Shown here piece by piece: positions 1,646 to 27,650 of a DNA stretch of 64,000 bases. Each line of letters opens with the position of its first letter. Positions within the stretch are counted from its first letter, which is position 1. The notes under the pieces were generated by a model. It saw only the letters and a list, made by a program, of their open reading frames with translations, made no database searches and was not told the DNA's origin. Position numbers and translations under genes: made by a program. The stretch lies in the NCBI RefSeq assembly GCF_009914755.1, contig NC_060930.1; one strand, written 5' to 3'. Source of the stretch: the human T2T-CHM13v2.0 reference genome, Homo sapiens.

Positions 1646-4183
1646 ATGGTGGTCATGGCACCCCGAACCCTCTTCCTGCTACTCTCGGGGGCCCTGACCC
1701 TGACCGAGACCTGGGCGGGTGAGTGCGGGGTCAGGAGGGAAACGGCCCCTGCGCGGAGGAGGGAGGGGCCGGCCCGGCGGGGGCGCAGGACCCGGCAGCC
1801 GCGCCGGGAGGAGGGTCGGGCGGGTCTCAACCTCTCCTCGCCCCCAGGCTCCCACTCCATGAGGTATTTCAGCGCCGCCGTGTCCCGGCCCGGCCGCGGG
1901 GAGCCCCGCTTCATCGCCATGGGCTACGTGGACGACACGCAGTTCGTGCGGTTCGACAGCGACTCGGCGTGTCCGAGGATGGAGCCGCGGGCGCCGTGGG
2001 TGGAGCAGGAGGGGCCAGAGTATTGGGAAGAGGAGACACGGAACACCAAGGCCCACGCACAGACTGACAGAATGAACCTGCAGACCCTGCGCGGCTACTA
2101 CAACCAGAGCGAGGCCAGTGAGTAACCCCGGCCCAGGGCGCAGATCACGACCCCCCACCTCCATGCCCCACGGACGCCCCGGGTACTCCCGAGTCTCCGG
2201 GTCTGGGATCCACCCCGAGGCCGCGGGACCCGCCCAGACCCTCTACCTGGGAGAACCCCAGGCGCCTTTACCAAAATCCCTGCGGGTGGGTCCGGGCGAG
2301 GGCGAGGCTCGGTGGGCGGGGCTGACCGAAGGGGTGGGGCCAGGTTCTCATACCCTCCAGTGGATGATTGGCTGCGACCTGGGGTCCGACGGACGCCTCC
2401 TCCGCGGGTATGAACAGTATGCCTACGATGGCAAGGATTACCTCGCCCTGAACGAGGACCTGCGCTCCTGGACCGCAGCGGACACTGCGGCTCAGATCTC
2501 CAAGCGCAAGTGTGAGGCGGCCAATGTGGCTGAACAAAGGAGAGCCTACCTGGAGGGCACGTGCGTGGAGTGGCTCCACAGATACCTGGAGAACGGGAAG
2601 GAGATGCTGCAGCGCGCGGGTACCAGGGGCAGTGGGGCGCCTCCCTGATCTCCTGTAGACCTCCCAGCCTGGCCTAGCACAAGGAGAGGAGGAAAATGGG
2701 ACCAACACCAGAATATCGCCCTCCCTCTGGTCCTGAGGGAGAGGAATCCTCCTGGGTTTCCAGATCCTGTACCAGAGAGTGATTCTGAGGGCCCGTCCTG
2801 CTCTCTGGGACAATTAAGGGATGAAGTCTCTGAGGGAGTGGAGGGGAAGACAATCCCTGGAGGACTGATCAGGGGTTCCCTTTGACCCCACAGCAGCCTT
2901 GGCACCAGGACTTTTCCCCTCAGGCCTTGTTCTCTGCCTCACACTCAATGTGTGTGGGAGTCTGACTCCAGCTCCTCTGAGTCCCTTGGCCTCCACTCAG
3001 GTCAGAACCAGAGGTCCCTGCTCCCCCGCTCAGAGACTAGAACTTTCCAAGGAATAGGAGATTATCCCAGGTGCCCGTGTCCAGGCTGGTGTCTGGGTTC
3101 TGTGCTCCCTTCCCCACCCCAGGTATCTGGTTCATTCTTAGGATGGTCACATCCAGGTGCTGCTGGAGTGTCCCATGAGAGATGCAAAGTGCTTGAGTTT
3201 TCTGACTCTTCCTTTCAGACCCCCCCAAGACACACGTGACCCACCACCCTGTCTTTGACTATGAGGCCACCCTGAGGTGCTGGGCCCTGGGCTTCTACCC
3301 TGCGGAGATCATACTGACCTGGCAGCGGGATGGGGAGGACCAGACCCAGGACGTGGAGCTCGTGGAGACCAGGCCTGCAGGGGATGGAACCTTCCAGAAG
3401 TGGGCAGCTGTGGTGGTGCCTTCTGGAGAGGAGCAGAGATACATGTGCCATGTGCAGCATGAGGGGCTGCCGGAGCCCCTCATGCTGAGATGGAGTAAGG
3501 AGGGAGATGGAGGCATCATGTCTGTTAGGGAAAGCAGGAGCCTCTCTGAAGACCTTTAACAGGGTCGGTGGTGAGGCCTGGGGGTCAGAGACCCTCACCT
3601 TCACCTCCTTTCCCAGAGCAGTCTTCCCTGCCCACCATCCCCATCATGGGTATCGTTGCTGGTCTGGTTGTCCTTGCAGCTGTAGTCACTGGAGCTGCGG
3701 TCGCTGCTGTGCTGTGGAGGAAGAAGAGCTCAGGTAAGGAAGGGGTGACAAGTGGGGTCTGAGTTTTCTTGTCCCACTGGGGGTTTCAAGCCCCAGGTAG
3801 AAGTGCGCCCTGCCTGGTTACTGGGAAGCACCATCCACACTCATGGGCCTACCCAGCCTGGGCCCTGTGTGCCAGCACCTTCTCTTTTGTAAAGCACCTG
3901 TGACAATGAAGGACAGATTTATCACCTTGATGATTGTAGTGATGGGGACCTGATCCTAGTAATCACAGGTCAGGGGAAGGTCCCTGGCTAAGGACAGACC
4001 TTAGGAGGGCAGTTGGTCGAGGACCCACATCTGCTTTCCTTGTTTTTCCTGATCCCGCCCTGAGTCTGCAGTCACACATTTCTGGAAACTTCTCGAGGGT
4101 CCAAGACTAGGAGGTTCCTCTAGGACCTCATGGCCCTGCCACCTTTCTGGCCTCTCACAGGACGTTTTCTTCCCACAGATTGA
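1646..4183 (+). CDS. HLA-G: HLA-G heavy chain (G1 isoform, 338 aa). Coding exons 1646-1718, 1848-2117, 2344-2619, 3219-3494, 3617-3733, 4179-4183. Allele consistent with G*01:06
   Basis: Leader [15 protein letters not shown], alpha1 [15 protein letters not shown], Cys42 (1970-72), Cys147 (2511-13), short RKKSSD* tail with TGA at 4181-83. All GT/AG junctions checked; exon sizes 73/270/276/276/117. Confidence 0.99.
3495..3559 (+). other. HLA-G: Intron-4 read-through tail of soluble HLA-G5/G6 ([21 protein letters not shown])
   Basis: ORF 3236..3559 continues exon 4 in frame into intron 4 and ends at TAA 3557-59. Confidence 0.95.
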
Positions 4184-5550: not shown

Positions 5551-6133
5551 TTCCCCAACCTTCTTAAAGGAAGCAGATTCTGAAACTTCCCGAGAGGAGA
5601 GGTCCCAGAGTTTTTCATTGTAGTTTACTTTCTGTTGGAACTCCTCTTCTGCTCTCTCTCCTACTCTTCTTCCTGCCCTGAGTTGTAGTAATCCTATTGC
5701 TGGCTCCAAACCAAACTCATGGATTTGTAAAGCAGAGTCTAATTTAGATTCATATGTGGTTGGATAATTGGAGCCATAAGCCTTGGGTTATCTTTCCTCA
5801 AGAGACAAATATGGTTGTGTGCTGCAGTGTGCAGGAGGATTGGTGTGGGAGGAGGGAGGGAGGGAGGACACAAAAGCAGCCCTGGTGAGAAAAGCACTGG
5901 TGCATTTATATCCACATGAGATAATATTGTTCCACAGCGGCTACAAAATGACATTTGGCCTGAGTCTACATTAATAAAGATATTGCCTTTAGAATAGGGG
6001 GGCGCACTACAGTAATCATCCATTCAAGTGGCATTTGTTGTCTGCTAGGTATTTGACTGTTTTTGCATTTAGAAAACATCGTTAAAGTAAAAACAGAAAA
6101 ATTTCTGGCCTTGTCGTGTATACATTCTAGATG

Positions 6134-6365
6134 CAAGCTTGTCCAACCTGCAGCTCTCGGGATGCATGTGGCCCAGGACAGCTTTAGAATGTGACGATTT
6201 TTTTGCTTATCTGTAGTGGCAGATATCATGAAAATTATCCATGCATTTTTTTTCTTTTTTCTATTTTTTTCTGCTCATCAGCTGTCATTAGTGTATTTTT
6301 TGTGTGGCTCAAGACAATTCTTCTTCCTATGTGACCCAGGGAAGCCAAAAGATTGGACACCTCTG
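6134..6365 (-). mobile_element. MER30 (hAT-Charlie) DNA transposon
   Basis: AAGACAATTCTTCTTCC...GGGAAGCCAAAAGATTGGACAC matches the recalled MER30 consensus, with imperfect TIRs (TGTCCAA...TTGGACA). Confidence 0.75.
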
Positions 6366-6399
6366 CAGGCAGATGATATAGTATAAGCAGAGTAGGAAC

Positions 6400-7180
6400 A
6401 GAAAATGCTTGAGTTAGAAGGTGGCAAGTGCTGTGTGGCAGGTGATCCAGAGGGTGGGCTGTGGGTACAGGGAGGTGGCTGTTGTGCTGGGTGGTCAGCA
6501 TGGGCCTTGTTGCAAATGTGACCTTGGAGTAAAGATTTGAGGGATGTGAGGAGTTGTCTACACGGATGTCTCAGAAAGTTCTTTTCAGGCAGGGAAACCT
6601 TCAGTGCAGATGCACTAGGGCAGGAAATTGTCTGTGTTCCTGGAAGGAGGAAGAGGCCAGAAGTGTTGAACAGAGAGAAACTGAAATGAAGTCAGAGGTG
6701 TGCCCAGAGCAGGTTGCCCTGGAGGGTGTGGGAAGGATGTTGACCTTTGCTCTGAATGACATGGGGAGTTAGAGGACAGTTTTGGAAAGTGGGACATGGT
6801 AGGACTTATCCTTTGAAAGCTTCTCTCTGGCTGCTGTGCTGAGAACAGAATTGAGAGGTGGGGGACTAGTGAGGCAGTGGGAAAAACGGTGGGAAAGGAG
6901 TGCAGTATTCCAGGATGGAGACGTCGCTTACCTTGACTGGGGTGTGAGCAGGGGAAATAGTGGGAAGTGATGGGATTCTGGATGAATTCACAGCACTTGC
7001 TAATGGATTTATCTGTGGTGTGAGAAAGAAGAATCAAGGACACCCACAGTATTGGACTGAGTGAGCAGAAGGGTGGAGCTGCTGTCAGTGGAGATGGGGA
7101 GACTCTGGCAGGAGCATACAGAGGAGAGGGCATTGCAGGCATCCAGTGGAGGTGACATCTACGAGGAATGAAGGTGAGGG
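6400..7180. mobile_element. Old L2 fragments
   Basis: Purine-rich degenerate L2-like text; boundaries approximate. Confidence 0.45.
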
Positions 7181-7805
7181 GCCCAGATGCCTCTGCAGCT
7201 ACAGATTCATCATCCAATCACTATCCTACTTCCACCACCCCTGTGTCTCAGAGCCAGAGCATTGATTCTCCCCTGTGCTGTCTGCACAGGTAGGTGAAAG
7301 TCAGGGAAGTTATGGTCTGCTGTTGGTTATAATAAGTCACAGATTATTGTGCTTTCTCAGATAATTAAAGAAATAACAAGAGAATTTGTAACTAGAACAC
7401 TTACTGAGAAGACCACAATAATGCAAAGTTTTTTATTCATCTAAAGAAGGCAACAGAAGAAAAATAGTTGAGCAAGAAAGATAATATTAGAAGGCAGTAA
7501 ATGAAAATGGACAGACTTAAACCCAATGAGGTCAACAATGACATTAAACGTAATGGACTCAGACACTCCAATTACAAGACAAATAGTGCAGAGGGATAAA
7601 AATAAATAAGTAAATAAATAAATAACCGTAGGCTATTTACAAAAGCCATAATTTCAGTAGAAGGTACAGAAAAGTTGAAAGTAAAAAGATAGAAAAGAAA
7701 TACCAGACAAACATTCATGAAAGACCACATGGAGATGCCATTTAGAAAAATTACAGCACATGAGTCTCCTGAGACATAGAGTACATGTAGACAGCTCACA
7801 GTGTC

Positions 7806-8699: not shown

Positions 8700-9125
8700 G
8701 AAGAAAAGTGTCAGTAGGACCAGAGCTGAAGGTTGAATCCAGGCCACCTGGCTGCAGGGTCTTGGCTTCCCTGGTTAAGTCAGGGACCCAGGAGCCCACC
8801 ACAAACAATCCCAGCTGCGCGGTGCCTTCATGGTCTGTGGCGCCCCCTGGTGTTGACACTGGGCCTGTGGCCAAATGAGGCTTGAGGGAAAAGGAAAACG
8901 GGTTTAGGTAGCGGGATCTCCTTCAGGCTCTCCAGATTTCAAGCCATGACTTACACTCAGAAAAAATAATGTTCACCTTAATTATCTCCCCAACCCTGTT
9001 TTTCCCAGTTCCGGCCAGTACCCTCCCTCGACTCCATCAACATCAGTACCTGCCAGATGCCCAGCACCCACCATGTGAGGAGTGAAAATGCCCCAGGACT
9101 AAAGGACAAGATGACGTTCCACCCC
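8700..9125 (-). pseudogene. Highly decayed MIC exon 6 / intron 5 relic
   Basis: Internal paralogy to 25910-26340 (GAATCCAGGCCACCTGGCTGCAG vs CAATCCAGGCCGCCTGGCTGCAG; GACTCCATCAACATCAG; CCCCAGGAC(T/C)AAAGGACAAGA). The minus-strand translation TDHEGTAQLG...TLQPGGLD resembles the MIC tail. Confidence 0.65.
8837..8855 (-). promoter_or_regulatory. CTCF motif
   Basis: Minus strand reads CAACACCAGGGGGCGCCAC, close to the CTCF core consensus. Confidence 0.65.
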
Positions 9126-18398: not shown

Positions 18399-19171
18399 TA
18401 GTGATGTTTTACAAGCACATTGTCTCTGTGCAGAGGTGGCCCTTGGAGTTCCTATGCCACTATGTTCTCTGATGTCACTCCTCAGCCACCTTTGAATTGT
18501 GCTTATGCATCAGAATTCCTGATCTGCTAAGTACTTCCAGGAAACTCATTCAAATGGTAAACATCATTAAGCACCTACCTTATTCTGGGTACTGTGCTCT
18601 ATGGAGTTGAGCCTCAGATAAAAGAATCAAACTTCCTTGGACTTCATAGAAGTCAAAGGTGGGGGTGGGAAGATAAATAAAGAAATTATAGCACAGCATG
18701 TTATGTATTTTACATGACTTTTTTCTTTGAAAGCTACATTATTAATATTTTATGACAGTACTGAGTTACATATACCAAAGATTACAAATTAAAATTTATG
18801 CTTTCTTTCTCTCTTTTGTTCTTACATATTTCTCTGTTCTTGTAGATATTTTGAAATTGGGTATTATGGAGACAGTGCAACAGTTTCATTTATATGATAA
18901 TGTTTTGTTTTACCTTTATTCATCAAAGAGAGATTTGTCAGCTGCAAATTTCTAGTTTGACATTGGTTTTCTCTCAGATCTTTGATGATTATGTTGCTTC
19001 TGGCTGCTGTGGCTGACAGGGGATAGTCAGTTACATTTTAACCAGTTGCTTCTTAGAGGATCTGTGTTTCTCCTGTGGCAAATTTTAAGATATCTGTTTC
19101 TCTTTAACATCTTCTGTTCCAGTGCAGTATGAGTAAATGTGGATCTCTTTTTATTCACAGTGCTATGATAC

Positions 19172-19747
19172 TGTTAGGTATGAGTTCTAAATTTCTCTTA
19201 AAATAATTAACATGTCAGTATGTTCAATTCTTTGCCCTCTACTTTTAAACTTAACTTCCTCATAAAGCAACCTTTTTTGATCACCTGTTCCACCCTGACT
19301 CATCCTGATTACTTGCTCCAGCCTGACTCATTCTGGTTACCTGCTCCACCCTGACTCATTCCAGTCACCTGCTCCACCCTGACTCATTCTGATTACCTGC
19401 TCCACCCTGACTCATCCTGATTACTTGTCCCAGCCTGACTCATTCCAGTTACCTGCACCACCCTGACTCATTCTGATCACCTGTTTCACTCTCTTTAAAT
19501 TAGCCAATCTGAATTAGTTTAGCCTGTGCGGTCTAACCCTAGCCAATAGGGGAATAACACAGCAGCAGGGGCCACGTGCATCAGGGATAAGAACCCCTTC
19601 CCCTTCCTTGTCCAGGGGTGTGCTCACCATTGCTCCATCTGTGAGGGCACACCCTTGTATAGAAGTAATTGCCTTGCTGAGAAGAAAAAAAGAAAATTTT
19701 ATATTTGAGTGCTATTTCTTTGTGGCATCAAGACTTTATTTACAATA
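19172..19747 (+). mobile_element. Solo LTR10 (LTR10A/F-like, HERV-I group) with internal 28-bp VNTR
   Basis: Starts TGTTAGGTATGAGTTCTAAATTTCTC as in the recalled LTR10A/F; 4-bp TSD ATAC at 19168-71 and 19748-51. Confidence 0.85.
19279..19485 (+). repeat. 28-bp tandem repeat, about 7.4 copies, each with TGACTCA
   Basis: TGACTCA starts at 19296, 19324, 19352, 19380, 19408, 19436 and 19464. Confidence 0.97.
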
Positions 19748-19874
19748 ATACATTTCCTTAATATTTTAAGATAACCTCTTTCTGGAATGCCTCTTTCCAT
19801 TTACTCACTTCTCTTCTTCTAGGAATTTAATTAGAGAAGAATTAAATTAAACCTCATTCAACCACCATATACAC

Positions 19875-20070
19875 TGTGGAATCCAAAATAATGGCCTCAC
19901 ACATATGTCCAAGCCCTAAGACGCAGACCATTTAGATATGTTACTTTACACAGCAAAAGGGACTTTGCTGATATGATTAAGAGCATGGACCTTTAGATGT
20001 GGAGATTATTTTGTATTATTTGAGTGGCCCCAATCTGATTGCATGATTTCTTTAACCTGGAGATGACTGG
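19875..20070. mobile_element. MLT1 LTR fragment
   Basis: ATGTTACTTTACACAGCAAAAGGGACTTTGCTGATATGATTAAG is MLT1-like. Confidence 0.65.
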
Positions 20071-21407: not shown

Positions 21408-21787
21408 TCGCTGGAGACAATGTCCACAGTTTATTTCTTGAGTCCTGGATGAACCTGACAGGACATAGCTGAGGGGAAGCCTGGCCCAGTCTGCAGGCTT
21501 TGGCCATCAGTGTAGAGGGAGGAGGTCCTCATCTCTCCACTGGAGCAGTTACAACCAGAGCCTCCTCTCTGCGTGGGAGTGAGGCTCGGTCCTTCCCCTG
21601 AACACGGTGACAGGGATCTCTCCACAGGTAGAGATGACACCATTCCTCCTGTAACATGGTCCAATCTCACGCTTGTTCTGCTTTACAAGAAAGTTGACCC
21701 ACGCTGGTGTCCCCTGAAGAAATCACAGGCACAGAGGAGGGACAGGTGGATTTCAGGGCTGTGCTTGATCTGGGAAAGGAAGAGTGC

Positions 21788-21807
21788 AGACCGCCAGGTG
21801 GCGCCGC
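21788..21807 (+). promoter_or_regulatory. CTCF motif
   Basis: AGACCGCCAGGTGGCGCCGC contains CCGCCAGGTGGCGC, matching the CTCF core consensus. Confidence 0.65.
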
Positions 21808-22599
21808 TGCACTGCTTCTGCGCCCAGGAGGTGCCTGCTGGGGCTGAGATTGAAGGTGGGGAGAAGGATGTCACAGCTCATCGCACAGGTTCCCGGTAAA
21901 AATCCTCCTGCCCAGCCTAGCGGGCTCTCCCTTAATCAACTGTAGCGAAAACTGTCTCCTTCTCACGTTCCTGGAAGGTGCTTTTTGACACAAGAAAGAG
22001 GATGTGATTGCTAGGGTCATCATGTCATTGTTTATTGTGTTGCCAGTAAAGTGAAATCAAAATACACAATAAATAATAAAATAACCCATGATAAGCCAAT
22101 GTTTATAATGTACTAACACCACTGAGCCAGTGTTTATAATGTACTGACACACTCCAAGTGTGGGCACAGCTGCAGACATGCCTTGTCTCTTGGGTCAGGA
22201 CACAGGGTAGAGTGAAATGGAAAGAAATCCCAGTCACTGCAGAAAAGGGCCCCCATGGAAGAGGCCTGGCAGGGAGGCCAGCTGTCCCAGGGCCGCCATA
22301 TTTAGGGATGACTCCCCCTTTCTGGGCAGCACTGGTTTTTTTAATTATTTTTGCATTCACAGTAGTTCTGAAATTGCAGGATGCTGAGACCCAGCACTGG
22401 TCAGTTACACCGTCTCTTCTTCACCATTAAATACTGTGCCAAACAGCACCTTCATACATTTCCATCCTCTTCCAGGAGAGAATCAAAACAACAATGGACA
22501 CATTGATGCATGCAAAAATACTTTAAATATGTGCTATCAGAAGTAGCTACTAAAACATTAATTCCACTGAAATGAGGGAGGCTGTAAAAAAGAAAAACA

Positions 22600-23070
22600 T
22601 TGCATACCCGTATTCACAGCAACATTACTCACCATAGCCAAGACAAGGAAGCAAACAAAGCACCCATCAACACATGAATAGATGAAGAACATGTGGTCTA
22701 TGTAGGCAATGGAATATGATTCAACCTTAAAAAGAAGGAAATTCTGTTACATGCTGCAACATGGATGAACCTGGAGAACAATGCTAAGTGTAATAAGCCA
22801 ATCACAAGGAAATTCCAATACTGCGCAATTCGTTATATGCGGCGTCTAAACTCTTAGAACCTGAAAGTAGAATGGCGGCTGCCAGTGGTTAGGCTGGGGG
22901 GATTCTTGAGGAGATTTTCAGCGTAGAGTTTCAGTTTTGCAAGATGAAAAGTTCTAGAGATCTGTTGCATAACAATGTGCTACAGTTCATATTATAGTAC
23001 TCTATACTTAAAAATTGTTACGATACCAAATTTTATATAATATGGATTTTGGCGCAATGAAAAAAATAAT
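22600..23070 (+). mobile_element. L1M 3' fragment
   Basis: Typical L1MB/MC 3' end text (ACATGGATGAACCTGGAGAAC...GATGAAAAGTTCTAGAGATCTG). Confidence 0.75.
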
Positions 23071-23721
23071 TAGCTCTGATACCAACTTAGGAAAAGAGCA
23101 CATGAATTTATTGAAAATATATTAGCATGTGCTTACTATGAAAAAGAGATGCAGAAAACTGTGAGACAAAAAGAGAGATCCTTGCTACCCCAGCTATTAT
23201 CCATGAACCAGCAGAACCAGCATCTCATGAAACTGGACAGAAAGGCTCACAGGCCCAGCCTTGACAGGTTGATCAGTCTGCATTTGTCAGGACCCCAGGT
23301 GGCTCCACTGCATGTAAAGCACCGCCCCAGATGGTGGTGGAGGGAGATCCTAGGAAGGTGACTCTGTCCCACAGGTAGAAGCCTCCAGTCCAGATGGGAG
23401 CAGCCAGAAGGGCCCAGGAGGGACATTTCCAAGAAAGTAAAATTAATAGAAAGTTCAAAGTCTCTAATTTCTTAACAGAGTCACAGAAATGGAACAGATA
23501 TCAAAGTTAAATTAATGAGAGTTATCTAGAACATAAACAAAAACAAAGGCAAGTATTAACTTGAGGAAGAACAAATACTACGAAGCAAGTGAAAAGTAGT
23601 CAAGTTGACATATGAGAAGATGAGTCACGGAAAAAGAAACAAGGAGTGGCTGAATTAAACATAATTACTATATAAATATACTGGGAAAAGGAAAGAACGG
23701 GAAGAGTGAAAGAGAACAAGT

Positions 23722-24281
23722 GATGGATGTGGTGACGTCGCGTTCTCCCGGGCGGGGCCGGAGGCGGTACAGATGAGGGACACATTCATGGCTAACAGGA
23801 CCGCTCTTCTCGTTCTGCGTTCTGCTTGCGGCCGGTAGTCTCTCCTCCCCGCCCATGGGCGGTGGTTGGAGGCAGGGGTGCGGAATCCGGCCGACCTCGC
23901 TGTCCTCGCCCTCTACCTTGTGGCGTCGGTGGGGTTGGGGAGATGAGTTCTCCGACGCAGCAGGCACCCCTGCTCATCTCCTATGGCTGTTGCCTTTTGG
24001 GCAGCCCCTCTTCGCGGCGGTGGGGCTGTCCCGCCGGCCTGTCACGTTGCCCTTCCCTGGGCTTGTGAGGATTGGCTCCGCTTGGACCTTTGCGGTGCTC
24101 CCGGAGCCCTCCAGGTTGTCCCTCCGGTGCCGGAGGCCAAGCGGTGGTGTCCTTCCTGTTCCCAGCGCCCCCTCCTCCTGTCGCTGCTGCAGTGCCTGTG
24201 TGTGGGTCCTGAGGGGTTTTGGGGAGGTAGAATATTTTTATTTATTTAAATAAATTAAAAAATAAGAAAAAAATACAAAAA
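23722..24281 (+). pseudogene. Retroposed fragment of the 47S/45S pre-rRNA 5' external transcribed spacer
   Basis: GC-rich island in AT-rich DNA, perfect 14-bp TSD GAAAGAGAACAAGT (23708-21, 24282-95), A-rich tail. Body is colinear with the recalled human 5'ETS (GATGTGGTGACGTCG, CCGACCTCGC, GTCCCGCCGGCC, GGTTGTCCCTC, GCGCCCCCTCCTCC, GTGGGTCCTGAGGG). Confidence 0.85.
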
Positions 24282-24799
24282 GAAAGAGAACAAGTAATCT
24301 TAACTATTGATTCCACCATCGTGCAGTGCAATAGTCAATGGCTGCAACTGAAAAATCAAGCAATGTTAACAAAGAAATGGTGCTTTGGTGCTTAGATATG
24401 TGAAAGTAAAGTCAAAAGAATCAGCTGAAACTTGAAAGTGGTTGCTCCCTAGAAAGGCAGAAACAGAGAAGAGAGGACTCTCCCTAGAAAGGCAGAGAAG
24501 ACTCGTTTTTCTCAGGAAGTCCTGCGCAAATATTTACTCTTTCAATTATGTGCAATTGTAACTTCGAATAAAATAAAAACAAAAGCTTCAGTTAACATGC
24601 AAGTTTATGCCTAATGACAACTTTGTTTAACAATGATAAAAGGCTAACCAAAATATAAAAACACTTAAACATAAAACAGCATGTATAAATGTGTATGTGA
24701 CATCAACCCTGAATACAAACTTGAAAGAATATGTCTATAAACAACTCTGGATAGATAGCCCATGAATGAATTCCCCACTCCAGCATCTTTACTGGTTGT

Positions 24800-27650
24800 C
24801 CTGTGAGCCTAGGCAGGGAGGGGACCAGGACCTGACTAGGGTCCCTAATACTCTTGCTTCCAGGCAAGTCCTGCATACACTCCTGCTGCACCGAGGGCTC
24901 CCATCCCTGCCTTGGTCTGTTTCATAGGTGCTCCCCTAACTCTCTGCCACCACTGCCTTACCTGGGTGGAGCTGAGGCCGCCCTGACCAAGAAGAGCGCC
25001 ACCCATCTATGTGCCCCAAAACCAGAAAGTCAAAAGAAACCTTGCAACAGGGTCAGGAACTATCCCACCTCCCCACCTCCGAATCAGTCTGAACTGATGG
25101 CGGGAGATGCTGATGCTTGCTTTATTCATCCTCATTCACTGTGCATTTATTTTTCACTAATTCAGTCCACATCTCCTAGAAGCAGACTGACCCCTACCCT
25201 TCATAATCAGGAAACCCCAGAGCACTTTTTGTCCCCTCCAGAATATAACACTTCAGCTCTGCATCATCACATGAGGGCTCCAACTCTGTAGGGCAGGTGT
25301 ACTCTCACAGCTTCAGGCCCTGAACATTTGCTTCAGATGTACCCCCATCCCTTCCCAGACCTGTCTGTGTTGCTCTGAATCTGTCCTTCCCTGAGAACCG
25401 ATGGGGAGATATCAGGGAGGAGGGGAGATTTCTTTGTGCTATGTCAATGCATCTAGACAGAGCTCTCATTCTCCCTTGAACCTCAACTCTATCCCTTCCC
25501 AGACACTTGAAATAAAACACAGACCAGAAATGTCTATTTAGAAGCTAAATATCTATAGTATAAAATATGAAGACAGAGTAGAATGGGGTAATGCAGGAGA
25601 GTGTGACAGGGCAAGGGGACCTCAACGTGCCAGGAAAGTTGGTCCTTGGCTCCCCTGGAGGAGCCGTCACCAGGACACTCACTCATAAAGCTCACCTGTG
25701 ATAATACAATTACATGACATTTAATGTATTAAAATATAATAAAATCATAACAAAATAACAAAAATAATATGGCACAGCTGCAAACACCTCATATATACTA
25801 ACAATTTTCATCCACCCAACCACAAGAAATAAATGCTGTTACATTCCCTATTTCATAGATGAGAAAGCTGAGCCAGCAAGAGAAAAAGTGCTGGTGAGAC
25901 CTGGGCAGGGCGTTCAATCCAGGCCGCCTGGCTGCAGAGTGTAGGTGCCCTCAGTAGAGCCAGTGGACCTGCGAGCTGACAGCGGAGACTGAAATCCCGG
26001 CTGTGCACTGCCCTGGTGTTCTCCTGTCTGAGTCAGGTGTTGATCTGGGCCTTGCAGACTCATGTGCTCTGGAGAAAAGAGAAAAAATAGTAAGTGCTCC
26101 CCTGGGTGCACAGTGCTGCTTTTTACTCCCTGAGGACTTCTCCCTCCTCAGTCAGTCCCAAATCAGATTCACCCTTTCTCCGAGGGAAGATGACGTCTGC
26201 ACTTTTTTCTCCCTCCCATGGCACTTTTCCCAGCCCCTGCCAGTCCCCTCCCATGACTCCATCAACATCAGCCCCTGCCCTGTGCCCACCACCCACCAAG
26301 CAAGGAGGAAAAGAGCCCCAGGACCAAAGGACAAGACCTGGGAAAAACCCAGTGCCCTCCCCTCCTCTCAAGCCTGGCCAGCTCTGACAGTGGGAGGACT
26401 CCCCAAAGAGAGGCTCTGGCCCTGGCTCCATGTCCTTCCAGGCCTGGGCTGGGTCACACGCACAGTCCTTCTCTCCCTCAGTCCCCAGTCCCACCTCACC
26501 TGTAGAGACACCTGCACACAAGGGCAGGCCCTAAACACTGTGGTTCTGCCCTCCACCTGCAGCTCAGTGCTCCTCCACTTCCAGCCCTGAGCAGGCAGCT
26601 CCTAACTGGGAAGCCCATTAAGAATCCCATCAGCACGGCAGGCCCAGCATGGAAACATGTAGCTGCTATGGGGTCTGCAGCTGACCTGACCCTGGGAACC
26701 CCCTTGCTCAAGGAGGCCCTGCCTACCCTGACCCCCAGGCCCATGACCTGCACTTGGGCCAAGCTTGCTCCAGCCTGGTCCACTCATCCCTGGAAGCACA
26801 GCTTCTCCCCAGGGCTGCTGCTTGGGGAGGCTGAAAGGCCTTTCTCTCCTGTTCCTAGCAGGGATTCCTAGCAGGGATTCCACCCAAGCCACTGCCCTCA
26901 CAGCCCATAGGGGATCTTCTTCTCCCTGTGGAGTAGAAAGTTTCTTGAGACCCCTCAGCCTGAGGCTGCCTCTGCCCACCCTTTGCACTTGGGGATTGCC
27001 ACTGCCACAGCCACCGTCTCCCACATGGACCGTCCTGGAGAGGGAGCTCCACATTTGAGTTCCTGTTTCATTTGATATGCATTACAACATTAGTATTGGT
27101 GGAAATCCTTTTAAGACCCAGCTGAAACTACGAACATCTTTATTGGACATCAGCATTTAAAGCAGGAATTTTGAGAAATTAGCACATAACTTTCTCACCC
27201 CTTTCCTGGCCAATGCCCCAGTAACCTACAAGGCAACCGTTCCCGCCCACGGGGAACCAGAACTGACAATCCCTCTTCAGGAGACACCACAGGTGAGAGC
27301 AGGAGCGACCACAGACCTGCACTGCCCCTGCTGTGGGTGCCTCCTGGACAGGGCCCTCTTGCTGCAGGGCAGGGGATGAACCATCCCATCTGCCCAGGCC
27401 TGAGGGGCCAACTGACAGTGCAATTAGGTTCAAGGATGAGAAATCACCACCCCCTGCCAGATACACAGAAGTGGGGAAATGGCAGAAAGACTCGGGTTTC
27501 CCAGACACTCCAGGCTCTCAGTGTCTCCTGCACTGTCTCTGTCTTTGCAGAAACACAAAACTTGCTGCTTGCTCTTTTCCCCTCCCTTCAAACAACCTGA
27601 CTGTGCGGGAAATCATCCTGACCATCTCTCACTCCAAACTCAGGTAGTGC
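24800..27650 (-). pseudogene. MICF: MIC pseudogene remnant (3' part of intron 5, exon 6 at 26068-25941, 3' flank)
   Basis: Minus strand: polypyrimidine tract and AG (26070-69), then EHMSLQGPDQH...AQPGFQSPLSARRSTGSTEGT, homologous to the MICA/B tail. The stop TAG has become TAC. Position between HLA-G and HLA-H fits MICF. Outer limits approximate. Confidence 0.8.

What the first reader, a model, noticed from the sequence alone, without database searches (positions are those of the whole stretch)
23708..24295. Retrotransposed pre-rRNA processing intermediate: 5'ETS copy starting at the 01/A' cleavage site
Seen: a 560-bp CpG-rich insert (23722-24281) in AT-rich DNA, with a perfect 14-bp TSD GAAAGAGAACAAGT and a decayed poly(A) tail. 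These are the marks of L1 target-primed reverse transcription. Recalled knowledge: the body is colinear with the human 47S 5'ETS from about nt 420 to about nt 930. Its first bases, GATGGATGTGG, match the conserved GATCGATGTGG motif just downstream of the primary 01/A' cleavage site. Inference: the template was a Pol I transcript already cut at 01, 3'-trimmed and oligo-adenylated (a TRAMP/exosome-type decay substrate). The locus would then record an rRNA-processing intermediate and an ancestral primate 5'ETS. It keeps many CpGs, a CRE-like TGACGTCG and a GC box, so it may act as an exapted CpG island in the MHC.
Basis: partly seen in the sequence, partly recalled or inferred. Interest (0 to 1): 0.85.

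Follow-up and report, generated by a model that had tools for sequence, protein, structure and literature searches.

The report
Retrocopy of a cleaved pre-rRNA spacer
A 560-base insert near HLA-G is an old LINE-1-made DNA copy of a discarded piece of the ribosomal RNA precursor that starts at its first known cutting site, a neat molecular fossil with no sign of a present regulatory role.

Summary
Window 23722-24281 is a 560-bp GC-rich insert between two perfect 14-bp direct repeats. Two paralogous MHC segments carry the uninterrupted target with one repeat copy.

The body, 23720-24215, is colinear and in sense with the rDNA 5'ETS, +429 to +941 of the CHM13 units, at 75% identity. An A/T-rich tail follows.

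The 5' boundary is +429 to +431, with 2 nt of microhomology. It falls on the first base of the conserved motif GATCGATGTGG (+431 in 30 of 30 rDNA loci). Published nanopore read starts at 423 and 429 and the two adjacent A'/01 cleavages of Kobylecki 2018 put the downstream 01 cut there.

The best reading is an L1-mediated retrocopy of a 01-cleaved, 3'-truncated, A-tailed 5'ETS fragment. The TRAMP origin of the tail is inferred. The tail is not clean, and the 3' end matches no listed RNA 3' end.

The exapted CpG island idea has no support. The CRE-like motif is inherited from the ETS, and CpG loss looks like ordinary methylation decay. The antisense strand supplies the splice acceptor of a predicted lncRNA exon.

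It is a new member of a known kind, of moderate interest.

The parts
23708..23721 (+). 5' target-site duplication (GAAAGAGAACAAGT). Its last 2 bases, GT, also match rDNA +429-430, giving a 2-nt microhomology at the 5' junction.
23722..23732 (+). Copy of the 11-nt evolutionarily conserved motif of the 5'ETS. It reads GATGGATGTGG where rDNA has GATCGATGTGG. This is the first unambiguous rDNA-derived sequence, equal to rDNA +431.
23722..24215 (+). Body of the retrocopy. It is the sense strand of the 47S 5'ETS, rDNA +431 (or +429) to +941. Identity is 389 of 519 alignment columns (75%).
24216..24228 (+). 13 nt, G/T-rich, of unassigned origin between the ETS homology and the tail. Extending the rDNA alignment past +941 is no better than shuffles (455 of 500 shuffles reach the score).
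24229..24281 (+). A/T-rich tail. The last 33 nt are 79% A. 24232-24263 is an imperfect palindrome. It has no other match in the genome.
24282..24295 (+). 3' target-site duplication (GAAAGAGAACAAGT).
22633..24208 (-). Exon 2 of the predicted lncRNA LOC105375010 (XR_007076695.1). It runs antisense through nearly the whole retrocopy. The acceptor AG is at 24210-24209 on the minus strand, preceded by the T-rich antisense of the tail. The donor GTGAGT starts at 22632.
   Evidence: hub gene table

Best explanation
This is a LINE-1-mediated (target-primed reverse transcription) retrocopy of a fragment of the Pol I pre-rRNA 5' external transcribed spacer.

The template RNA had already been cut at the downstream position of the 01/A' site, so its 5' end was the first base of the conserved motif. 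It ended about 510 nt further on, roughly 700 nt short of site A0, and carried an A-rich 3' extension that L1 ORF2p could prime on.

The most likely source is a 3'-truncated, adenylated 01-A0 by-product or a prematurely terminated, 01-cleaved Pol I transcript. Both are surveillance substrates.

It inserted into single-copy sequence of the MICF-side class I duplicon after that duplicon had separated from its paralogues, probably tens of millions of years ago. Since then it has decayed as neutral, methylated DNA.

Its only visible present use is passive. On the antisense strand, the poly-T of the tail plus an AG inside the ETS-derived sequence give the 3' splice site of exon 2 of a predicted lncRNA.

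Shown: the insertion anatomy, the rDNA origin, the strand, both end coordinates, and the empty paralogous sites. Inferred: the identity of the template species, who added the tail, the age, and neutrality.
For: 1. TPRT marks
- The TSD is a perfect 14 bp, with 2 matches in the window against 0.03 expected.
- An A-rich tail abuts the 3' TSD.
- The pre-insertion site reads GT/GAAAGA. This resembles the L1 endonuclease preference TT/AAAA, which is recalled consensus.
- Both paralogous segments found on the same chromosome, 2 of 2, are empty with a single copy of the target. L033 has the identical 14-mer. L035 has it with 2 changes.

2. Source
- The insert matches the rDNA arrays on C13, C14 and C21 at 74-75% over query 1-494, all on the + strand.
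- On that strand 18S and 5.8S follow downstream, so the copy is in sense.
- In the 9-kb rDNA stretch, only the 5'ETS segment and an Alu match the window.

3. 5' end
- The alignment starts at +429, and the first 2 nt are shared with the TSD.
- The conserved motif starts at +431 in 30 of 30 rDNA loci.
- In the nanopore data of PMC13201660 (supplement file 3, sheet FigS5C-F), the significant nuclear read starts upstream of 3578 are only 423, 429, 443, 456 and 484.
- The same table puts the 18S start peak at 3653, against an annotated 3654. So 429 means base 430 or 431.
- Kobylecki 2018 reports two adjacent A' cleavages 6 nt apart, at 414-416 and 420-422 in U13369 numbering, and 01-A0 fragments that keep their 5' end while being shortened from the 3' end.
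- The motif lies 5 nt downstream of the processing site.
- The most abundant 5'ETS small RNA starts 6 nt upstream of the motif, at +425.
- Under uniform 5' truncation over 941 positions, about 8 positions would give such a coincidence, roughly 1%. This is my own arithmetic and is post hoc.

4. Pathway plausibility
- The A'-A0 fragment needs the exosome, TRAMP and MPP6 for turnover (Sloan 2014, section read).
- Papd5-dependent polyadenylation of aberrant Pol I transcripts ending in the 5'ETS is reported (passages of Wang and Pestov).
- There is no AATAAA or ATTAAA in rDNA +800 to +1000, so canonical polyadenylation is unlikely.

5. Decay
- 27 of 80 rDNA CpGs are retained and 28 of 80 are now TG or CA.
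- Non-CpG divergence is 49 of 336.
Against: - The tail is not a clean poly(A). It has 18 T in 60 nt, a T-rich arm and an imperfect palindrome. A 13-nt G/T-rich stretch between body and tail is unexplained.
- The 3' end (+941) matches none of the listed nuclear read ends. The nearest are 840-843 and 995.
- TRAMP-type tails are short, by recall, while L1 priming needs a real A tract. The tail-adding step is therefore the weakest link.
- The endonuclease site departs from the consensus at 2 of 6 positions.
- The 5' boundary is ambiguous by 2 nt.
- The link between the nanopore reference (5'ETS 3654 nt) and the CHM13 units (3655 nt) assumes that the 1-nt difference lies downstream of +431.
- I did not see the U13369 sequence. 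Its offset of about 10 nt is recalled and inferred from the equal 6-nt spacing.
- Read starts cluster at 423-484, so the region is rich in 5' ends.
- Only paralogous empty sites were examined, not orthologous ones.
Confidence: 0.72

Rival explanations
1. The insertion mechanism is the same, but the template was a longer RNA: 47S, 30S-type, or an abortive transcript from +1. The 5' end then arose from premature end of reverse transcription and microhomology-mediated joining, and lies at the 01 site only by chance.
For: A 2-nt GT microhomology sits at the 5' junction, as often seen at 5'-truncated L1-type junctions (recalled). 5' truncation is common in trans-mobilised copies; I saw only the abstract listing of PMC2912911.
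Against: The chance of landing within the ambiguity window of either 01 position is about 1% over 941 positions (my arithmetic). RNAs that begin at 01 are the common 5'ETS-bearing species. In the nanopore table the '5ETS-01' class scores about 8295 in nuclei, against about 717 for the uncleaved '5ETS' class.
Confidence: 0.1
2. This is a chimeric retrocopy. The ETS fragment was not adenylated itself. L1 reverse transcriptase started on the poly(A) end of another RNA and switched template to the ETS fragment, or an RNA ligase joined the two RNAs first. The stretch 24216-24281 would be the remnant of the second RNA.
For: A 13-nt non-ETS stretch and a T-containing, AATAAA-bearing A/T-rich segment (AATAAA at 24249) lie between the ETS homology and the 3' TSD. 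Chimeras of L1 with 28S, 5S, U3, U6 and others are documented (passages of bioRxiv 2025.02.02.635956; abstract listing of PMC6789731).
Against: The 70-nt query 24212-24281 finds nothing in the genome but itself. The search skips simple and common words, so this is weak evidence. No L1, Alu or recognisable mRNA 3' end is present. An A-rich microsatellite (period 11, 3 copies) is typical of aged poly(A) tails.
Confidence: 0.13
3. A piece of rDNA was captured at the DNA level, as filler DNA at a double-strand break or a remnant of a dispersed rDNA unit. No RNA intermediate was involved.
For: Dispersed degraded rDNA units that include IGS exist in the human genome (passages of Robicheau 2017, PMC5381670).
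Against: The insert has a 14-bp TSD and an A-rich tail at the sense 3' end. It contains only transcribed sequence and starts at an RNA processing site. No IGS or promoter sequence is present. The empty sites are precise.
Confidence: 0.02
4. In addition to its origin, the insert has been exapted as an unmethylated CpG island, promoter or enhancer in the MHC.
For: The sequence criteria for a CpG island are met: 496 nt, GC 66.3%, o/e 0.68. It lies inside an exon of a predicted lncRNA (hub table).
Against: - The o/e is residual from a source with o/e 1.05. Only 27 of 80 CpGs survive, and 28 are TG or CA.
- The CRE-like octamer is inherited from the ETS.
- The annotated lncRNA starts about 2 kb away, at 26187, and uses the insert only as internal antisense exon sequence (hub table).
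- The RefSeq enhancer (18786-19985) and silencer (21689-21983) do not overlap it.
- No methylation, ATAC or CAGE data could be consulted.
Confidence: 0.06

Closest known systems
L1-mobilised rRNA pseudogenes (28S, 18S and 5S fragments; RepeatMasker LSU-rRNA, SSU-rRNA and 5S classes; 28S/L1 chimeras)
   Same: The source is the Pol I or Pol III ribosomal transcript, the insertion is by L1 TPRT with a TSD, and the copies are fragments rather than full length (passages of bioRxiv 2025.02.02.635956).
   Different: Here the template is spacer only, the excised 5'ETS. This is a short-lived nucleolar by-product that is never part of a ribosome. That preprint has 0 occurrences of 'ETS', 'pre-rRNA', '45S' or 'spacer'. 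Repeat libraries hold no ETS model, by recall, so such copies go unannotated.
snoRNA retroposons (snoRTs; Weber 2006, PMC1687206)
   Same: A nucleolar non-coding RNA is copied by L1 with a TSD and an A tail.
   Different: I saw this paper only as a search listing with abstract. snoRNAs are stable, functional RNAs, whereas the ETS fragment is a decay substrate. No box C/D or H/ACA family matches the insert.
The human 01/A'-A0 (ETS2) pre-rRNA by-product and its 3'-shortened decay intermediates (Sloan 2014; Kobylecki 2018)
   Same: The 5' end is at the 01/A' cleavage, the 5' terminus is intact, and the 3' end is shortened. Turnover depends on the exosome and TRAMP.
   Different: The reported intermediates end at 1534-1634, about 1470 and about 1428 (U13369). 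The retrocopy ends far upstream, at +941 in CHM13 numbering. That paper's main text has 0 occurrences of 'adenyl'.
Dispersed DNA-level rDNA pseudogenes (Robicheau et al. 2017)
   Same: These are rDNA-derived sequences outside the arrays.
   Different: Those include IGS and were argued not to depend on reverse transcription. This one is transcript-only, with a TSD and a tail.
Antisense Alu exonisation
   Same: The antisense of a retroelement's A tail gives a polypyrimidine tract, and a nearby AG becomes a 3' splice site. The Alu precedent is recalled.
   Different: The donor element is an ETS retrocopy. The transcript is only a predicted model (XR_007076695.1).

Membership tests
L1 (TPRT)-mediated retrocopy / processed pseudogene | Target-site duplication of about 7-20 bp flanking the insert | tested here: met
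   The TSD is 14 of 14 identical. There are 2 matches in the window against 0.03 expected.
L1 (TPRT)-mediated retrocopy / processed pseudogene | A-rich tail at the 3' end of the sense strand, abutting the 3' TSD | tested here: met
   26 of the last 33 nt are A. The tail is impure further upstream, with 18 T in 60 nt.
L1 (TPRT)-mediated retrocopy / processed pseudogene | Insertion at an L1 endonuclease-type site (TT/AAAA-like) | tested here: inconclusive
   The site reads GT/GAAAGA. It matches 4 of 6 positions of the recalled consensus.
L1 (TPRT)-mediated retrocopy / processed pseudogene | Precise empty site with one copy of the target | tested here: met
   2 of 2 paralogous segments are empty. 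Orthologous sites were not available.
L1 (TPRT)-mediated retrocopy / processed pseudogene | Colinear with an RNA, without promoter or flanking genomic sequence of the source | tested here: met
   Only +429 to +941 of the transcribed spacer is present, with no IGS or promoter.
01/A'-A0 pre-rRNA by-product (ETS2) | 5' end at the 01/A' cleavage | tested here: met
   The boundary is +429 to +431. Nanopore read starts at 423 and 429 correspond to bases 424/425 and 430/431. The motif starts at +431 in 30 of 30 loci. The reference numbering link is assumed, not verified.
01/A'-A0 pre-rRNA by-product (ETS2) | 3' end at site A0 | tested here: not met
   It ends at +941. A0 is at about 1642 in the nanopore table. 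It is therefore a truncated derivative at best.
TRAMP/exosome substrate with non-canonical oligo(A) tail | Tail added by PAPD5-type polymerase at a non-canonical 3' end | not testable with these tools
   The evidence is indirect. No poly(A) signal lies in rDNA +800 to +1000, and the literature describes the pathway.
CpG island | Length of at least 200 bp, GC of at least 50%, CpG o/e of at least 0.6 (recalled criteria) | tested here: met
   496 nt, GC 66.3%, o/e 0.68.
CpG island | Unmethylated in the germ line, with open chromatin or promoter activity | not testable with these tools
   No methylation or chromatin data are held. The CpG to TpG/CpA decay (28 of 80) argues for past methylation.
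Chimeric retrogene (template switch or RNA ligation) | A second identifiable RNA-derived 3' part (L1, Alu or an mRNA 3' end) | tested here: not met
   24212-24281 matches only itself. The search is weak on low-complexity sequence.
DNA-level dispersed rDNA pseudogene | Contains non-transcribed rDNA (IGS) or a multi-part unit, with no TSD or tail | tested here: not met

The most novel reading that the evidence does not exclude
The L1 machinery occasionally samples nucleolar surveillance substrates, and this locus is a genomic fossil of one. It preserves, to the nucleotide, the 5' end made by the downstream 01/A' cleavage at the first base of the conserved motif. It also preserves a snapshot of the primate 5'ETS from tens of millions of years ago.

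If this is general, spacer retrocopies are invisible to repeat libraries because no ETS or ITS models exist. They would form an unmined record from which ancestral spacers and the antiquity of individual pre-rRNA processing sites could be read.
Probability: 0.55. Interest if true: 0.55.

Novelty: new member of a known kind. Interest (0 to 1): 0.42.

Why it matters
Retrocopies of rRNA, snRNA and snoRNA are well known. A copy made purely of excised spacer, with its 5' end at a mapped processing site, is unusual.

It shows that a discarded nucleolar by-product could reach L1 ORF2p with an A tract. It gives independent, evolutionary evidence for the position of the downstream 01 cleavage. It also offers a dated sample of a fast-evolving spacer.

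In practice, such copies are not annotated by repeat maskers. They can be mistaken for CpG islands or attract multi-mapping rDNA reads in the MHC.

It does not appear to matter for MHC regulation.

Tried and rejected
1. Genome-wide census of other ETS retrocopies
- With the insert as query, only 40 of 243 first-look candidates were scored, and 39 of these were rDNA units. Weaker non-rDNA copies could not be seen.
- The 19-mer at the start of the insert has 225 exact matches. 1 is this locus. The 99 others listed are all on C13, C14 or C15, and 125 are unlisted.
- With up to 2 mismatches there are 238 matches. The 13 extra compare with 84 for the reversed-pattern control. So there is no sign of a family, but the test is weak for old copies.

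2. Extending the homology past +941
- This was not significant: 455 of 500 shuffles reached the score.

3. Donor for the tail segment
- None was found.

4. Exact U13369 numbering of the motif
- I could not obtain the U13369 sequence or a paper printing it with coordinates.
- Kass 1987, Craig 1987, Ginisty 1998, Singh 2021 and Shcherbik 2010 are not held.
- The Kobylecki supplement is a PDF and could not be read.
- I bridged the gap with the nanopore supplement and the small-RNA passage.

5. Rfam
- No family matches the insert. The one hit in 22500-25500 has E 0.85, is below threshold, and lies outside the insert.

6. Earlier findings of this scan

7. Prior description in print
- Searches, and passages, found no description of an ETS-derived retrocopy or of this MHC element.
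- The library lacks most subscription journals, so this is not proof of absence.

8. Primate orthologues, methylation, ATAC and CAGE
- No data are held for any of these.
Full report
**What is there**

Window 23722-24281 is a 560-bp block inside AT-rich DNA. GC is 0.63-0.70 in 200-bp windows inside the block and 0.31-0.34 on either side.

The block is bracketed by GAAAGAGAACAAGT at 23708-23721 and 24282-24295, 14 of 14 identical. With up to one mismatch these are the only 2 matches in the 64-kb window. The expected number is 0.03, and 1 of 100 shuffles gave 2.

The flank is not a high-copy repeat. A 622-nt query just upstream of the insert found 3 first-look candidates in the whole assembly, and all 3 were scored. 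They are the locus itself and two paralogous places on the same chromosome.

BLAST of window 23100-24900 against those places shows the flanks joining directly across the insertion point in both. Identity to L033 is 85% on the left and 78% on the right. Identity to L035 is 81-88% on the left and 71% on the right.

L033 carries one copy of the identical 14-mer. L035 carries one copy with 2 changes. Neither has any trace of the insert or of the A/T-rich tail. The insert therefore arrived as one event that duplicated 14 bp of target, after these duplicons had separated.

**Where it comes from**

With the insert as query, the assembly returns itself and the rDNA arrays of C13, C14 and C21. The matches have 74-75% identity over query 1-494 of 504, and all are on the + strand. 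Only 40 of 243 candidates were scored.

In a 9-kb stretch of one C13 unit (L031), Rfam places 18S at 5878-7746 and 5.8S at 8830-8982 on the + strand. It places the promoter-associated pRNA at 2086-2175. The start-site sequence sits at 2223, which gives a 5'ETS of 3655 nt.

A local alignment puts window 23720-24215 on rDNA +429 to +941, with 389 of 519 columns identical. BLAST of the 9-kb unit against the whole window gives this one spacer match. It also gives matches of an Alu that lies at the start of L031, plus a few short weak hits.

The copy is in the sense orientation, and the A-rich tail follows the sense 3' end. It contains transcribed spacer only.

**The 5' end**

The first two aligned bases, GT, are also the last two bases of the 5' TSD. 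The boundary is therefore ambiguous between +429 and +431.

The first unambiguous bases are GATGGATGTGG. This is a copy of the 11-nt conserved motif GATCGATGTGG, whose first base is +431 in 30 of 30 rDNA loci examined.

Four pieces of literature place the 01/A' cleavages here.

1. Kobylecki et al. 2018 (PMC6239190, passages). [quoted passage not shown] Cloned 01-A0 fragments began at 415, 416, 419-422 and once at 424. Their 3' ends were shortened while the 5' terminus stayed intact.
2. A preprint passage puts the 11-nt motif 5 nt downstream of the processing site (bioRxiv 2021.06.09.447752).
3. The most abundant 5'ETS-derived small RNA in three cell lines starts 6 nt upstream of the motif. That is +425 of the CHM13 units (bioRxiv 2022.08.22.503746, one passage).
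4. The nanopore study PMC13201660 gives read-start sites in supplement file 3, sheet 'FigS5C-F' (part 1 read).
   - The significant nuclear read starts in the 5'ETS are 423, 429, 443, 456 and 484, then nothing until 3578.
   - In the same table the 18S 5' end, annotated 3654, peaks at 3653.
   - So 423 and 429 stand for bases 424/425 and 430/431.

The two peaks are 6 nt apart, like the two U13369 sites. The downstream one coincides with the start of the retrocopy to within its 2-nt ambiguity.

There are three caveats.
- The nanopore reference has a 3654-nt 5'ETS against 3655 in the CHM13 unit. I assume the difference lies downstream of +431.
- I never saw U13369 itself. Its offset of about 10 nt is recalled.
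- The region holds several 5' ends.

Under uniform 5' truncation over 941 positions, about 8 start positions would give an equal or better coincidence with either 01 position. That is roughly 1%, and the estimate is post hoc.

**The 3' end and tail**

Homology ends at +941 (window 24215). Extension beyond that point is no better than shuffled sequence: 455 of 500 shuffles reach the score.

Thirteen G/T-rich bases follow, and then an A/T-rich stretch up to the 3' TSD. The last 33 nt are 26 A, 5 T, 1 G and 1 C. The 60 nt 24222-24281 hold 34 A and 18 T.

24232-24263 is an imperfect palindrome (88% self-complementary). The 70-nt query 24212-24281 matches nothing else in the assembly. TRF sees a period-11 A-rich array at 24248-24281.

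rDNA +800 to +1000 holds no AATAAA or ATTAAA. A canonical poly(A) site at the source is therefore unlikely.

The 3' end matches none of the listed nuclear read ends. These are 489, 500-502, 686-692, 822, 840-843, 995, 1453-1455 and further. Site A0 is near 1642, so the fragment stops about 700 nt short of it.

**How it most likely arose**

An RNA that began at the downstream 01 cut and ended near +941 acquired an A tract. L1 ORF2p then copied it at a GT/GAAAGA nick.

Two sources fit, and I cannot separate them.
- One is the excised 01-A0 by-product, partly shortened from its 3' end. Sloan et al. [quoted passage not shown]
- The other is a prematurely terminated Pol I transcript that had been cleaved co-transcriptionally at 01. 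Passages of Wang and Pestov 2011 describe Papd5-dependent polyadenylation of aberrant Pol I transcripts that end within the 5'ETS.

The adenylation step is inferred. Its weak points are the impure tail, the unexplained 13 nt, and the short length of TRAMP tails (recalled). A chimera made by template switching or RNA ligation stays open, at about 0.13.

**What has happened since**

- The aligned rDNA segment has 80 CpGs (o/e 1.05). The insert has 37 (o/e 0.68).
- 27 of the 80 are kept, and 28 of the 80 are now TG or CA.
- 32 of 52 differences at CpG positions are C>T or G>A.
- Non-CpG positions differ at 49 of 336, or 42 of 319 when CpG context in either sequence is excluded.
- Identity is uneven along the alignment, from 0.63 to 0.83 in 60-column windows. 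The best windows show 2-4 non-CpG differences in 36-41 sites.
- I read this unevenness as much of the divergence lying on the fast-evolving rDNA side, and about 5-8% on the retrocopy side.
- That suggests an age of tens of millions of years. This is an inference with wide error, and no primate orthologues were available to test it.

**The regulatory claim**

The insert meets the sequence criteria of a CpG island. This is residue of an extremely CpG-dense source that decayed in the way methylated DNA does.

The CRE-like octamer lies inside the 19-mer that is exact in 224 rDNA places, so it is inherited and not acquired. The 'GC box' results from a single C-to-G difference from rDNA.

The RefSeq enhancer and silencer of the window do not overlap the insert (hub table). 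Methylation and chromatin could not be checked.

One thing can be seen. Exon 2 of the predicted lncRNA LOC105375010 (22633-24208, minus strand) begins inside the retrocopy.
- The minus strand reads a T-rich tract, which is the antisense of the tail, and then CCCCTCAG|GACCC, with the AG at 24210-24209.
- The exon ends at a consensus donor, TATG|GTGAGT.
- Exon 1 ends at CCCAG|GTCTCA.
- This is the same logic as antisense Alu exonisation. The transcript is only a model.

**Comparison with what is known, and novelty**

L1-made pseudogenes of 28S, 18S, 5S, snRNAs and snoRNAs are established. So are L1 chimeras with several of them (listing).

Dispersed rDNA fragments described by Robicheau et al. 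2017 include IGS, and were explicitly argued not to need reverse transcription.

Three literature searches and these passages gave no description of a spacer-only retrocopy or of this MHC element. The library lacks most subscription journals.

I file it as a new member of a known kind. The mechanism is ordinary, the template is unusual, and the 5' end is informative.

**Verdict**

- The TRAMP tail is plausible but inferred.
- The exaptation idea is unsupported.
- Interest is moderate, 0.42.

Noticed in passing
window 24209-24281 (minus strand): The 3' splice site of exon 2 of the predicted lncRNA LOC105375010 is built from the retrocopy. The antisense of the A-rich tail gives the pyrimidine tract, and the AG lies in ETS-derived sequence. 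The donor at 22632 is a consensus GTGAGT.
   Followed up: partly
window 24232-24263: The tail holds an imperfect palindrome (88% self-complementary), with a T-rich arm followed by an A-rich arm. The origin of the T-rich arm is unexplained.
   Followed up: partly
window 24216-24228: Thirteen G/T-rich bases lie between the end of the ETS homology and the A/T-rich tail. They match neither rDNA +942 onward nor anything else found.
   Followed up: partly
window 23807-23825: A 7-nt unit TTCTGCG is repeated 2.9 times inside the insert, in the stretch where identity to rDNA is lowest. It may be a small tandem duplication after insertion or a difference in the ancestral ETS.
   Followed up: no
window 24445-24496: A perfect 17-nt direct repeat, CTCCCTAGAAAGGCAGA, occurs twice 35 nt apart in the 3' flank of the insert.
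   Followed up: no
L031 4261-4350 (rDNA unit on C13, 5'ETS about +2039 to +2128): Rfam mir-663 matches the 5'ETS of the rDNA unit above its gathering score (102.5 bits against 75).
   Followed up: no
L033 (C6:29612164-29612177) and L035 (C6, near 31273306, minus strand): The insertion target lies in a segment shared by three class I duplicons, with identity of 71-88% to the window. From recalled map positions these would be the MICE-side and MICA-side duplicons. This was not checked.
   Followed up: no
L031 1-262 against window 5298-62546: The rDNA intergenic spacer just upstream of the promoter region starts with an Alu. It matches 14 Alu copies in the window at 70-78% identity. This is trivial, but it explains the extra BLAST rows.
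   Followed up: no
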